In this document: piece by piece, positions 21,001 to 24,000 of the stretch
Numbering within the stretch: the stretch's first letter is position 1
Layout: every line of letters begins with the position of its first letter
NCBI RefSeq assembly: GCF_054482595.1
Contig: NZ_CM137008.1
DNA: 64,000 bases
Strand: one strand, 5' to 3'
Made by a program: the position numbers

Positions 21001-24000
21001 CCAATCACACACCTGCTTTACCCAGCCATGTTTCACTGGATTTATATAAATATAATCAACATGATGCCGATAATCTTTTGTATTACGGATGGCATGCTCC
21101 CAAAAACGTGGTTGCCAGATATTTTTCAATCCACAAGCATGGGTGAATTGCTTTTTAATCTCTCTCCAGCGCGAGGAAAAATCATCATCGCCTTCAGGTA
21201 ATGTCCATATGCAATGCATATGCTCTGGCAAAACGACCCAAGCGTTGATTTCAAAAGGTCTGTCTCGCTTAACGTTAATAATAGCGTTACGGAGCATCTG
21301 GAACTGAGCGGTCAGAAGGTGGCTTCGACGATTTCGTAGGTTAACCGTGAAAAACCAGGTTCCCCCCTTGATGTAATACCGACGATATTCAGACATAGCG
21401 ACTCCTTTTTCTCAACGGTAAGAAGAAAAGGAAAGGTTGGCAATGAGGTTGTTTTATATCGGGAAAGCGGCTCGCAAATATTCGCGGGCTCGTAGGCATG
21501 ATAAGACGCGCCAGCGTCGCATCAGGCACCTGCGTACAACTGCCGGATGCGGCGTAAACGCCTTATCCGTCCTACAAAATCGTCTCTTCCGTCAAAATCC
21601 GGCGCGCGCCTAAAAAATGATCCTGCCAGAAAGGTTCAGCTAACCGACTTACCCGAATGGTTTCCCCGGTGCGCGGTGACTCAATAAACTGACCGTCGCC
21701 CAGATATACCCCCATATGGTCGGCAATCTCGCGGCTGTGGATATGGAAAAACAGCAAATCTCCCCGGCGCAGGTCGTTATTCGCCACAATCGTTGCCCGA
21801 TGGTAGTGATACATCTCATTAGCCGTACGCTGGAGCTTCGCCTCGAGGATCTTGTTGTAGGCATAAAAAACCAACCCGCTACAGTCAAAGCCTTTATCAG
21901 GCCGCGTGCCGCCCCAGACGTAAGGCTTGCCAAGCTGCTGCTCCAGGCGGTGAATCGCCACTTCGGTAATGTTATGCAGATGGTCGCTGCTTAAAAAGTG
22001 GTTGTTTTCCGCCAGCGCCTGCCAGCGTCTGTCACTCGCCTTGAGCGGCGCAGGAAACCATTCTGGATGCTGTTTTATCTGTTCGCGGTTGTGCTGGCGC
22101 AGCGCCCTTCTGCTTTCGGCATTGCCTTCCACAATATAGCTGGCCTGCTTTTTCAGATGGGTTTGGTACTGTTTTAATAAACGCGCACGGTTTTGCATCC
22201 GCTGGCGGGCGGCGTAGCTGAAAGAGATATGTGATGTGGTGGCGCTGGCAAATGAAGAAAACGGCAAACAAATCAACAGTAATCCCGACAATACAAAGGA
22301 TGGAATCGACGGCAAGGACATACTCAATAATGGCTGGTCATGCTTTAATGTTGCAGTGTATCCCGGATCGTTTCTGAACAAACTTAATAAACCATTATTA
22401 TAAAATTAACATATATATTTCAGTGAATTATGTAAATACATCAGTTTATTGAATTGCTCATAAATTGCCGCTGTTGCTCAATTGAGCTACAATTCAAGCT
22501 GAATATATATACAGCACAGGAGATACCCCAATGGCTGCAAATGCATTTGTTCGCGCCCGAATCGATGAAGATCTGAAGAATCAGGCGGCGGACGTACTGG
22601 CCGGGATGGGGCTGACCATCTCTGACCTGGTTCGCATAACCCTCACAAAGGTCGCGCGTGAAAAGGCATTGCCGTTTGATTTACGCGAGCCTAATCAATT
22701 AACCATTCAATCAATCAAAAACAGCGAAGCTGGCGTTGGTGTTCATAAGGCCAAAGACGCCGATGATTTATTTGATAAATTAGGAATTTAAATATGATTC
22801 AAAGGGATATTGAATACTCGGGACAATTTTCAAAGGATGTAAAACTTGCACAAAAGCGTCATAAGGATATGAATAAATTGAAATATCTTATGACGCTTCT
22901 TATCAATAATACTTTACCGCTTCCAGCTGTTTATAAAGACCACCCGCTGCAAGGTTCATGGAAAGGTTATCGCGATGCTCATGTCGAACCGGACTGGCTC
23001 CTGATTTACAAACTTACCGATAAACTTTTACGATTTGAGAGAACTGGAACTCACGCGGCGCTCTTTGGGTAAAGCCCGCTGCCGATGAAATTTGTAAACC
23101 CTGCGCCGACAGGCTTGCGTAAAACTCTTTTGGTGATAATGTGAGCCTTCCAAATCCAGACTATTCCGATTTGGGATCCATTTTGCCGTCCTGGCGTGTG
23201 TAACCGTTTTATCAAGGAATAAGCAGTATGCGTAAAATCGCATTAATTCTTGCGATGTTGTTGATCCCGTGCGTTTCGTTTGCCGGTTTGCTGGGCAGCA
23301 GTAGCTCGACCACGCCAGTGAGCAAAGAGTATAAGCAGCAGTTGATGGGATCCCCTGTCTACATCCAGATCTTCAAGGAAGAACGTACGCTCGATCTCTA
23401 CGTCAAAATGGGTGAGCAATATCAACTGCTCGACAGCTATAAAATCTGTAAATATTCCGGCGGCTTAGGGCCAAAACAGCGTCAGGGCGATTTCAAAAGC
23501 CCGGAAGGGTTTTATAGCGTCCAGCGTAATCAGTTAAAACCAGACAGCCGTTACTACAAAGCGATTAATATTGGTTTCCCCAATGCCTATGACCGTGCGC
23601 ATGGTTATGAAGGGAAATACCTGATGATCCACGGCGATTGTGTTTCCATCGGCTGCTACGCAATGACCAATCAGGGTATTGATGAGATCTTCCAGTTCGT
23701 TACTGGTGCGCTGGTGTTTGGTCAGCCGAGCGTGCAAGTGAGTATTTACCCGTTCCGCATGACCGACGCTAATATGAAGCGCCACAAATATTCCAACTTT
23801 AAGGACTTCTGGGAGCAACTGAAGCCAGGCTACGACTACTTTGAGCAAACCCGTAAGCCACCGACCGTTTCTGTGGTCAATGGCCGTTACGTGGTCAGCA
23901 AGCCGTTAAGCCACGAAGTTGTGCAACCACAACTGGCATCAAACTACACGCTCCCCGAGGCAAAATAAGCGCCATTCGCCTGGCATAATCTTTTGCCAGG

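What the first reader, a model, noticed from the sequence alone, without database searches (positions are those of the whole stretch)
22499..22514. Perfect LexA palindrome in front of dinJ-yafQ, and a second SOS box at dinB
CTGAATATATATACAG sits 17 bp upstream of dinJ, and CTGGTAAAGTATACAG (18183-18198) sits upstream of dinB, so both the toxin-antitoxin pair and the polymerase carry SOS boxes. The dinJ box is close to the consensus.
Basis: partly seen in the sequence, partly recalled or inferred. Interest (0 to 1): 0.25.

Follow-up and report, generated by a model that had tools for sequence, protein, structure and literature searches.

The report
Known LexA boxes at dinJ, dinB
Both sequences are real, already well-known binding sites for the DNA-damage repressor LexA in front of the E. 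coli genes dinJ-yafQ and dinB; the only new detail is that this strain carries a rare one-letter variant of the dinJ site that sits slightly closer to the ideal LexA sequence.

Summary
They are the two best LexA-like sites in the 64 kb window, far beyond chance. The window is E. coli, 100% identical to strain GF66.1 over 8 kb. The dinB box and 83 bp upstream of dinB are identical to K-12, and the box is exact in 5,384 of 5,426 complete E. coli genomes; it overlaps the predicted -10. The dinJ box is not a perfect palindrome (14 of 16 positions self-complementary) and is one mismatch from CTGTATATATATACAG. It is a minority allele, found in 78 genomes. The K-12 allele CTGAATAAATATACAG is in 3,025 and a third allele, CTGTATAAATATACAG, in 212. 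The box lies just downstream of a predicted -10, over the likely transcription start. A second palindrome, GTTGCTCAATTGAGCTAC, lies just upstream of it. That palindrome is conserved before dinJ homologues in Yersinia, Xenorhabdus, Photorhabdus, Pectobacterium and beyond, and is the probable DinJ operator. None of those homologues has a LexA box, so the box is an Escherichia-specific addition. Published K-12 work reports LexA binding in vitro and 2-3-fold derepression without lexA. It found no clear induction by DNA damage. Verdict: real, already known, low interest.

The parts
22499..22514 (.). LexA (SOS) box of dinJ-yafQ, CTGAATATATATACAG (20-mer 22497-22516, AGCTGAATATATATACAGCA). Minority allele with T at box position 8.
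   Evidence: best LexA score in the window (HI 4.99), reached by 0 of 300 shuffles; 78 genomes carry this allele, 3,025 the K-12 allele and 212 the T4 allele.
22465..22493 (+). Predicted sigma-70 promoter of dinJ-yafQ: -35 TTGCCG (22465-22470), 17-nt spacer, -10 TACAAT (22488-22493). The inferred start near 22500 lies inside the LexA box.
   Evidence: This is a consensus match only; the transcription start is inferred, not mapped here.
22473..22490 (.). Probable DinJ / DinJ-YafQ operator: 18-bp palindrome GTTGCTCAATTGAGCTAC (16/18 self-complementary, with a perfect 12-bp core GCTCAATTGAGC). It spans the promoter spacer and the first bases of the -10.
   Evidence: ten invariant columns (G..T...TC....GAGC.AC) across 21 dinJ promoters from several orders. 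PMC6529426 reports that DinJ binds a palindrome partly overlapping the promoter elements.
22449..22467 (.). Upstream arm of a longer imperfect inverted repeat (pairs with 22479-22497, 74% complementary). It contains a second TTGCTCA copy (22454-22460) 20 nt before the one in the operator, so it may be an auxiliary half-site.
   Evidence: I1, D1. Poorly conserved within E. coli and across genera; function not shown.
22518..22522 (+). Shine-Dalgarno AGGAG, 8 nt before the dinJ ATG.
   Evidence: The GGAG columns are nearly invariant.
22531..22791 (+). dinJ, RelB/DinJ-family antitoxin (86 aa). 84/86 identical to K-12, with residues 1-68 (including the DNA-binding N-terminus) unchanged.
22794..23072 (+). 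yafQ, RelE-fold mRNA interferase toxin (92 aa). Intact; 90/92 identical to K-12 with conservative changes only.
18183..18198 (-). LexA (SOS) box of dinB, CTGTATACTTTACCAG on the - strand (20-mer 18181-18200, CACTGTATACTTTACCAGTG).
   Evidence: second-best LexA score in the window (HI 8.77); 83/83 identical to the K-12 upstream region; exact in 5,384 of 5,426 genomes.
18190..18217 (-). Predicted dinB promoter: -35 TTCTCA (18217-18212), 16-nt spacer, -10 TATACT (18195-18190). The -10 lies inside the LexA box.
   Evidence: consensus match only.
17111..18166 (-). dinB, DNA polymerase IV (351 aa).
16647..17114 (-). yafP, GNAT acetyltransferase. It overlaps the dinB stop (ATGA), so it is presumably co-transcribed from the LexA-controlled dinB promoter. 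A 1-nt deletion near 16771 frameshifts its C-terminus in the window sequence.

Best explanation
These are the two classical LexA operators of the E. coli yafL-dinB chromosomal region. At dinB the box overlaps the predicted -10 hexamer. A LexA dimer bound there would block RNA polymerase, and RecA-stimulated LexA self-cleavage after DNA damage would release dinB and the downstream yafP. This is textbook SOS control. At dinJ-yafQ the promoter carries two adjacent, independent repressor sites. One is an ancestral palindrome (GTTGCTCAATTGAGCTAC) across the spacer and -10, bound by the antitoxin DinJ or the DinJ-YafQ complex for autorepression. The other is a LexA box that starts 5 bp after the -10 and covers the inferred transcription start. 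It is found only in Escherichia and lies where the Escherichia promoters are about 8 bp longer than those of other genera. Both locks must open for strong expression, so LexA cleavage alone would give only modest derepression. That would reconcile in vitro LexA binding and 2-3-fold derepression in a lexA deletion with the lack of clear damage induction in K-12. The window's allele (A to T at box position 8) restores one more palindromic pair. A Berg-von Hippel model predicts about 2.7-fold tighter LexA binding. Shown here: the sequences, their statistical strength, their positions relative to predicted promoter elements, the allele frequencies and the cross-genus conservation pattern. Taken from the literature for K-12: LexA binding, DinJ autorepression and the expression data. 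Inferred: the transcription start, the identification of the conserved palindrome as the DinJ site, the dual-lock explanation for weak induction, and the effect of the T allele.
For: The sequences are at the stated coordinates. LexA scores rank first and second in the window and exceed the shuffles. The dinJ box begins 5 bp after the predicted -10 TACAAT, and the dinB -10 TATACT lies inside its box. The dinB upstream region is 83/83 identical to K-12, and the box is exact in 5,384 of 5,426 genomes. Three dinJ-box alleles account for 3,315 of about 3,330 locus-bearing genomes. All keep CTG-N10-CAG, and both minor alleles move toward consensus. The palindrome at 22473-22490 has ten invariant columns across 21 promoters from several orders, whereas the best LexA-like score upstream of the 29 non-Escherichia homologues is 14.6 or worse. 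DinJ residues 1-68, which include the DNA-binding N-terminus, are identical to K-12. Literature: LexA binds the dinJ promoter, and DinJ and DinJ-YafQ repress equally (PMC4996492, PMC10135005, PMC8138530, PMC6529426, all citing Ruangprasert 2014). dinJ-lacZ rises 2-3-fold in a lexA sulA deletion (PMC6015884). A Salmonella dinJ gene with a LexA box 14 bp upstream is induced 7.8-fold by nalidixic acid (PMC8072944).
Against: [quoted passage not shown] So the LexA box may contribute little in vivo. The primary papers (Ruangprasert 2014, Prysak 2009, Lewis 1994, Fernandez de Henestrosa 2000) were not held, so binding data come second-hand. The transcription start and both promoters are consensus predictions only. 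My matrix was built from 25 sites recalled from memory and does not reproduce published heterology indices (for example umuDC 0.64 against 2.77 as I recall it), so only ranks and differences are usable. No experiment exists for the T allele.
Confidence: 0.62

Rival explanations
1. The dinJ box binds LexA but has little or no regulatory effect in vivo. On this view it is a vestigial or near-neutral site, and dinJ-yafQ expression is set essentially by DinJ autorepression and antitoxin proteolysis.
For: The K-12 dinJ promoter showed no significant induction by ciprofloxacin (PMC2826370), and damage induction has not been seen experimentally (PMC4996492). All 29 non-Escherichia homologues do without a LexA box. 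Lineages with a frameshifted yafQ (O157:H7 Z570, 99-3165) still carry the box, so keeping the box does not require a working toxin.
Against: The lexA deletion gives 2-3-fold derepression (PMC6015884). Across about 3,330 genomes the CTG and CAG triplets are intact in the three alleles that cover more than 99% of them, and both minor alleles move toward consensus rather than decaying. The surrounding intergenic DNA shows many substitutions by comparison. E. coli genomes are closely related, however, so this is weak evidence of selection.
Confidence: 0.25
2. The CTG-N10-CAG palindrome is, or is also, a DinJ binding site, so LexA and DinJ compete for or share it rather than acting at separate operators.
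For: A review states that DinJ binds 'the LexA palindrome' in the cspE promoter (PMC5408214, citing Hu et al. 2012). The box is a strong palindrome immediately next to the other operator.
Against: The element conserved with DinJ across genera is GCTCA-N2-TGAGC, not the LexA box, which is absent from all 29 non-Escherichia homologues even though their DinJ proteins are 50-85% identical. PMC6529426 describes the DinJ site as a palindrome overlapping the promoter elements and lists the LexA site separately. The Hu et al. paper was not held, so the cspE claim could not be examined.
Confidence: 0.1
3. The matches arise by chance in AT-rich intergenic DNA and have no relation to LexA.
For: The bare pattern CTG-N10-CAG occurs 32 times in the window, and the yafL-dinJ spacer is only 29% G+C.
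Against: None of 2,000 shuffles of that AT-rich spacer reaches the dinJ score, and 1 of 2,000 reaches the dinB score. None of 300 whole-window shuffles reaches the dinJ score. Both sites sit on predicted promoters of genes long known as din (damage-inducible) loci.
Confidence: 0.01

Closest known systems
E. coli K-12 dinJ-yafQ promoter: LexA box AGCTGAATAAATATACAGCA plus the DinJ operator (Lewis 1994, Fernandez de Henestrosa 2000, Ruangprasert 2014; cited from my own knowledge and through PMC4996492, PMC6529426 and PMC6015884)
   Same: Same locus between yafL and dpaA, same gene order and same promoter layout. DinJ is 98% and YafQ 98% identical to K-12. The box is at the same position, 16 nt before the ATG.
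   Different: One base in the box (A to T at position 8; 78 genomes against 3,025) brings it closer to consensus. One base in the DinJ operator core gives GCTCAATTGAGC instead of GCTCATTTGAGC, making the 12-bp core a perfect palindrome. The -35 reads TTGCCG instead of TTGTCG, and several further upstream substitutions are present.
E. coli K-12 dinB (dinP) LexA box CACTGTATACTTTACCAGTG and the dinB-yafN-yafO-yafP operon
   Same: The box and 83 bp upstream of dinB are identical. The box overlaps the predicted -10.
   Different: The operon here is dinB-yafP, without the yafN-yafO toxin-antitoxin pair. K-12 has 755 nt between dinB and yafP; here they overlap by 4 nt. This arrangement is common, in 2,512 of 5,426 genomes. 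yafP is frameshifted in the window.
[quoted passage not shown]
   Same: A LexA box at the promoter of a toxin-antitoxin module (PMC2826370, PMC9040746). The Salmonella dinJ gene has a box 14 bp from the ATG (PMC8072944).
   Different: tisB and symE are strongly induced, 1,000-fold and 100-fold, while dinJ-yafQ is not (PMC2826370). The Salmonella gene is induced 7.8-fold (PMC8072944). In the type I loci only the toxin is under LexA control; here toxin and antitoxin share one operon that is also autorepressed.
dinJ-yafQ homologues of Yersinia, Xenorhabdus, Photorhabdus and Pectobacterium
   Same: DinJ is 70-85% identical. They share the GCTCAnnTGAGCTACA palindrome at the -10 and the Shine-Dalgarno spacing.
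   Different: No LexA box: the best heterology index is 14.6 or worse, against 5.0-6.0 in Escherichia. The stretch between the -10 and the Shine-Dalgarno sequence is about 8 nt shorter.

Membership tests
E. coli-type LexA operator (SOS box) | 16-bp motif CTG-N10-CAG with an AT-rich, roughly palindromic interior (consensus TACTGTATATATATACAGTA) | tested here: met
   dinJ: CTGAATATATATACAG, one mismatch to the ideal 16-mer, HI 4.99. dinB: CTGTATACTTTACCAG, HI 8.77. They rank first and second of 63,981 positions.
E. coli-type LexA operator (SOS box) | Score better than expected by chance in this sequence | tested here: met
   None of 300 window shuffles reaches 5.0, and 1 of 300 has two sites at or below 8.8. 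Local intergenic shuffles give 0 of 2,000 and 1 of 2,000.
E. coli-type LexA operator (SOS box) | Position overlapping or next to the core promoter or transcription start of the regulated gene | tested here: met
   The dinJ box starts 5 bp after the predicted -10. The dinB -10 lies inside its box. The promoters are predictions, not mapped starts.
E. coli-type LexA operator (SOS box) | Physical binding by LexA | not testable with these tools
   Reported for the K-12 allele (Ruangprasert 2014, as cited in PMC4996492, PMC10135005 and PMC8138530). Not tested for the T allele.
SOS regulon member (gene induced by DNA damage in a LexA- and RecA-dependent way) | Transcript rises after DNA damage and is derepressed in lexA(Def) | not testable with these tools
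   dinB: I treat this as an established SOS gene from my own knowledge; the Salmonella homologue dinP is induced 11.3-fold (PMC8072944). dinJ in K-12: 2-3-fold up in a lexA deletion (PMC6015884), but not significantly induced by ciprofloxacin (PMC2826370) and not seen experimentally (PMC4996492). Membership of dinJ-yafQ in the functional regulon is therefore unresolved.
Type II toxin-antitoxin module DinJ-YafQ | Antitoxin gene (RelB/DinJ, ribbon-helix-helix) directly upstream of a RelE-fold YafQ toxin gene in one operon | tested here: met
   TIGR02384 scores 83.6 bits (cut-off 45.65) and TIGR00053 scores 120 bits (cut-off 87.25). The two genes are 2 nt apart. They are 98% and 98% identical to K-12.
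Type II toxin-antitoxin module DinJ-YafQ | Autoregulatory operator palindrome overlapping the promoter | tested here: met
   The 18-bp palindrome at 22473-22490 lies across the spacer and -10 and is conserved in 21 promoters across genera. That DinJ binds it is inferred from this conservation and from PMC6529426.

The most novel reading that the evidence does not exclude
The LexA box is a recent, Escherichia-only addition to an older DinJ-autoregulated promoter, at a spot where the Escherichia promoters are about 8 bp longer. Natural alleles are moving it toward consensus: T8 in 78 genomes, including this strain, and T4 in 212. If these stronger boxes, together with the perfect operator core in this haplotype, change the behaviour of the promoter, dinJ-yafQ could be truly damage-inducible or tightly LexA-silenced in these lineages. 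That would make them a natural allelic series for studying how a toxin-antitoxin module is recruited into the SOS regulon. It could also explain why K-12 experiments disagree about SOS control.
Probability: 0.12. Interest if true: 0.3.

Novelty: already known. Interest (0 to 1): 0.08.

Why it matters
It matters little beyond correct annotation. The dinB box is textbook SOS control of a mutagenic translesion polymerase, and the dinJ box has been catalogued since the 1990s. Three modestly useful points came out. The dinJ LexA box is confined to Escherichia, while a different palindrome is the conserved operator of the DinJ family. Three natural box alleles of graded predicted strength exist and could serve as ready-made material for testing whether LexA control of dinJ-yafQ is functional. 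In this strain the dinB operon lacks yafNO, which leaves dinJ-yafQ as the only LexA-boxed type II toxin-antitoxin pair in the region.

Tried and rejected
1. The bare pattern CTG-N10-CAG as evidence. Rejected because it gives 32 matches against 14.9 expected, most of them G+C-rich and inside genes, so a weight matrix was needed.
2. Reproducing published heterology indices with a matrix of 25 LexA sites recalled from memory. The consensus came out right but the absolute values did not match those I recall, so only ranks, shuffle statistics and allele differences are used.
3. Reading the primary papers. Ruangprasert 2014 (PMC4110269), Wade 2005 (PMC1276735), Armalyte 2012 (PMC3294823) and Hu 2012 (PMC7261204) are not held, so secondary citations were used.
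4. Looking for a mapped dinJ transcription start or DnaA-box coordinates in the supplement of PMC6015884. Only a figure legend is held.
5. Phylogenetic footprinting of the LexA box across genera. The expected conservation was not found: the box is absent outside Escherichia. This redirected attention to the conserved upstream palindrome.
6. Two further LexA-like 20-mers, at 13660-13679 and 45097-45116. Both are inside genes (gpt and tagH), the first lacks CAG, and they were set aside as probable chance matches.
7. The 'chance in AT-rich DNA' rival. Rejected by local shuffles.

Full report
**Observation.** Window 22499-22514 reads CTGAATATATATACAG. Sixteen bases (CACAGGAGATACCCCA, containing the Shine-Dalgarno AGGAG) separate it from the ATG at 22531 of an 86-codon ORF. 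A 92-codon ORF follows 2 nt after that one. Window 18183-18198 reads CTGGTAAAGTATACAG, which is CTGTATACTTTACCAG on the minus strand. It ends 16 nt before the ATG at 18166 of a 351-codon minus-strand ORF. NCBIfam identifies the three products as a RelB/DinJ-family antitoxin, a YafQ-family toxin and DNA polymerase IV, all well above the curated cut-offs. The neighbours are YafP, YafL and RayT. The phrase 'perfect palindrome' is not: only 14 of 16 positions are self-complementary, because A4 faces A13. The box is one mismatch from the ideal CTGTATATATATACAG.

**More than chance?** The bare pattern CTG-N10-CAG is uninformative, with 32 matches against 14.9 expected. I built a heterology-index matrix (Berg-von Hippel, as used by Lewis et al.) from 25 E. 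coli LexA sites recalled from memory, leaving out dinJ and dinB. It returns the accepted consensus TACTGTATATATATACAGTA. It does not reproduce the published absolute values as I recall them, so I use only ranks and differences.
- Of 63,981 positions on both strands, the dinJ 20-mer is best (4.99) and the dinB 20-mer second (8.77).
- None of 300 dinucleotide-preserving shuffles of the window reaches 5.0. Twenty-one contain any site at or below 8.8, and one contains two.
- Shuffling only the AT-rich yafL-dinJ spacer (29% G+C) gives 0 of 2,000. Shuffling the dinB-lafU spacer gives 1 of 2,000.

**Where the window comes from.** The window is E. coli. An 8-kb stretch (16000-24000) is 100% identical to strain GF66.1 apart from one indel. 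Gene order matches K-12: pepD, prfH', yafP, dinB, lafU, lfhA', rayT, yafL, dinJ, yafQ, dpaA, yafJ.

**dinB.** The 83 bases upstream of dinB are identical to K-12 MG1655. A 40-mer centred on the box was designed so that megablast's 28-base word must span the whole box. It hits 5,384 of 5,426 complete E. coli genomes. The best promoter-like match on the dinB strand is TTCTCA-16-TATACT, and its -10 lies inside the box. This is the canonical dinB operator, and nothing about it is unusual.

**dinJ within E. coli.**
- The locus is present in about 3,330 of 5,426 genomes.
- The same 40-mer design gives an allele census. The K-12 box CTGAATAAATATACAG is in 3,025 genomes, the window's CTGAATATATATACAG in 78, and a third allele, CTGTATAAATATACAG, in 212. 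Together these cover 3,315 genomes, more than 99% of those with the locus.
- All three alleles keep CTG and CAG, and both minor alleles move toward consensus. Their heterology indices are 5.98 (K-12), 4.99 (window) and 3.93 (T4).
- The window allele is predicted to bind about 2.7-fold better than K-12's. This is a model prediction, not a measurement.
- About 56-65 genomes are at least 99% identical to the window across the locus, close to the 78 that carry the allele. The allele therefore looks like a lineage haplotype marker.
- That haplotype also differs from K-12 in the -35 (TTGCCG against TTGTCG) and in the core of the upstream palindrome (GCTCAATTGAGC against GCTCATTTGAGC).
- DinJ is 84/86 identical to K-12, with residues 1-68 (including the DNA-binding N-terminus) unchanged. 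YafQ is 90/92 identical.

**Promoter anatomy.** The only forward promoter-like match before dinJ is TTGCCG (22465-22470), a 17-nt spacer, and TACAAT (22488-22493). The LexA box starts 5 bp later and so covers the inferred transcription start. Between the -35 and the -10 lies an 18-bp palindrome, GTTGCTCAATTGAGCTAC (22473-22490), which is 16/18 self-complementary.

**Cross-genus comparison.**
- A scan of one genome per species found 30 dinJ homologue loci: another Escherichia, and at 50-85% identity Yersinia, Xenorhabdus, Photorhabdus, Pectobacterium and several environmental MAGs.
- Only the Escherichia locus has a LexA-like site within 150 nt upstream (5.98, the K-12 allele). The best score among the other 29 is 14.6, which is background.
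- By contrast, the palindrome is conserved. In an alignment of 21 promoters, ten columns of GTnGCTCnnnTGAGCnAC are invariant.
- The two Escherichia sequences are about 8 nt longer between the -10 and the Shine-Dalgarno sequence, exactly where the 3' half of the LexA box lies.
- I conclude that the conserved palindrome is the family's autoregulatory operator. [quoted passage not shown] The LexA box is a lineage-specific addition.

**What is known experimentally (all for the K-12 allele).**
- LexA binds the dinJ promoter, and DinJ and DinJ-YafQ repress equally well (Ruangprasert 2014, as reported in PMC4996492, PMC10135005 and PMC8138530).
- A chromosomal dinJ-lacZ fusion is 2-3-fold higher in a lexA sulA deletion (PMC6015884).
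- PMC4996492 states that induction after DNA damage 'experimentally has not been seen'.
- A Salmonella gene annotated dinJ, with a LexA box 14 bp from its ATG, is induced 7.8-fold by nalidixic acid (PMC8072944). So LexA control of a DinJ-type module can be effective.

**Mechanism proposed.** dinB follows plain SOS control: LexA occludes the -10. dinJ-yafQ has a double lock, with DinJ at the spacer and -10 and LexA at the start site. Removing LexA alone leaves DinJ autorepression in place, which would explain the modest derepression and the negative induction experiments. This is an inference. The test is a reporter in a strain lacking DinJ.

**Rivals.**
- The box may be functionally negligible (confidence 0.25). 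Lineages with a frameshifted yafQ still carry it. Its intactness in more than 99% of genomes argues weakly the other way.
- DinJ may also use the LexA palindrome (0.1), as reported for cspE (PMC5408214). The cross-genus pattern argues against this for the home promoter.
- Chance (0.01).

**Novelty and score.** Both boxes are long-known features of E. coli. The rare T allele, the allele census and the Escherichia-only distribution of the box are small additions, not a new kind of element. Novelty: already known. Interest: 0.08.

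Noticed in passing
window 16647-17114 (- strand), indel near 16771: yafP, the gene after dinB in the LexA-controlled operon, has a 1-nt deletion in an A run (AAAA to AAA) relative to GF66.1 and K-12. 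This replaces about the last 35 residues with an out-of-frame tail, and the family match stops at residue 131. It could be a real pseudogene or a homopolymer sequencing error.
   Followed up: partly
window 17095-17134 (dinB/yafP junction): dinB overlaps yafP (ATGA) with no yafN-yafO toxin-antitoxin pair. K-12 has 755 nt containing yafNO at this point. The direct junction is common, in 2,512 of 5,426 complete E. coli genomes.
   Followed up: yes
window 18237-20706: A truncated lafU / lfhA (flhA-like) remnant of the Flag-2 lateral flagellar cluster, as in K-12. Strain XH990 is 100% identical to the window at dinJ-yafQ but keeps the intact Flag-2 cluster (fliP, fliQ, fliR, flhB, full-length flhA). 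So the deletion and the dinJ haplotype are not strictly linked.
   Followed up: partly
L034 (strain 99-3165) and L035 (O157:H7 Z570), yafQ from position 495 of each locus: yafQ is annotated as frameshifted in these lineages, while dinJ, the DinJ operator and the LexA box are intact. Strain 99-3165 also carries the third, more consensus-like box allele CTGTATAAATATACAG, found in 212 genomes.
   Followed up: partly
window 22476-22487: In the window haplotype the 12-bp core of the conserved DinJ-family operator is a perfect palindrome, GCTCAATTGAGC. K-12 and most E. coli have GCTCATTTGAGC. The central bases also vary between genera, so the effect on DinJ binding is unknown.
   Followed up: partly
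window 45097-45116 and 13660-13679: Two weaker LexA-like 20-mers lie inside genes. CGCTGTCTGTTCACACAGCA (HI 9.99, CTG and CAG intact) lies 96 nt into a type VI secretion tagH gene. AGCTGGAAATACAAACGGTA (HI 9.25, no CAG) lies inside gpt. About 0.2 such sites at or below 10 are expected per window by chance. They are probably chance matches and were not tested further.
   Followed up: partly
window 20899-21396 (- strand) and flanking REP-like sequence: rayT (REP-associated tyrosine transposase) lies between lfhA' and yafL, as in K-12. Its flanking REP repeats were not examined.
   Followed up: no
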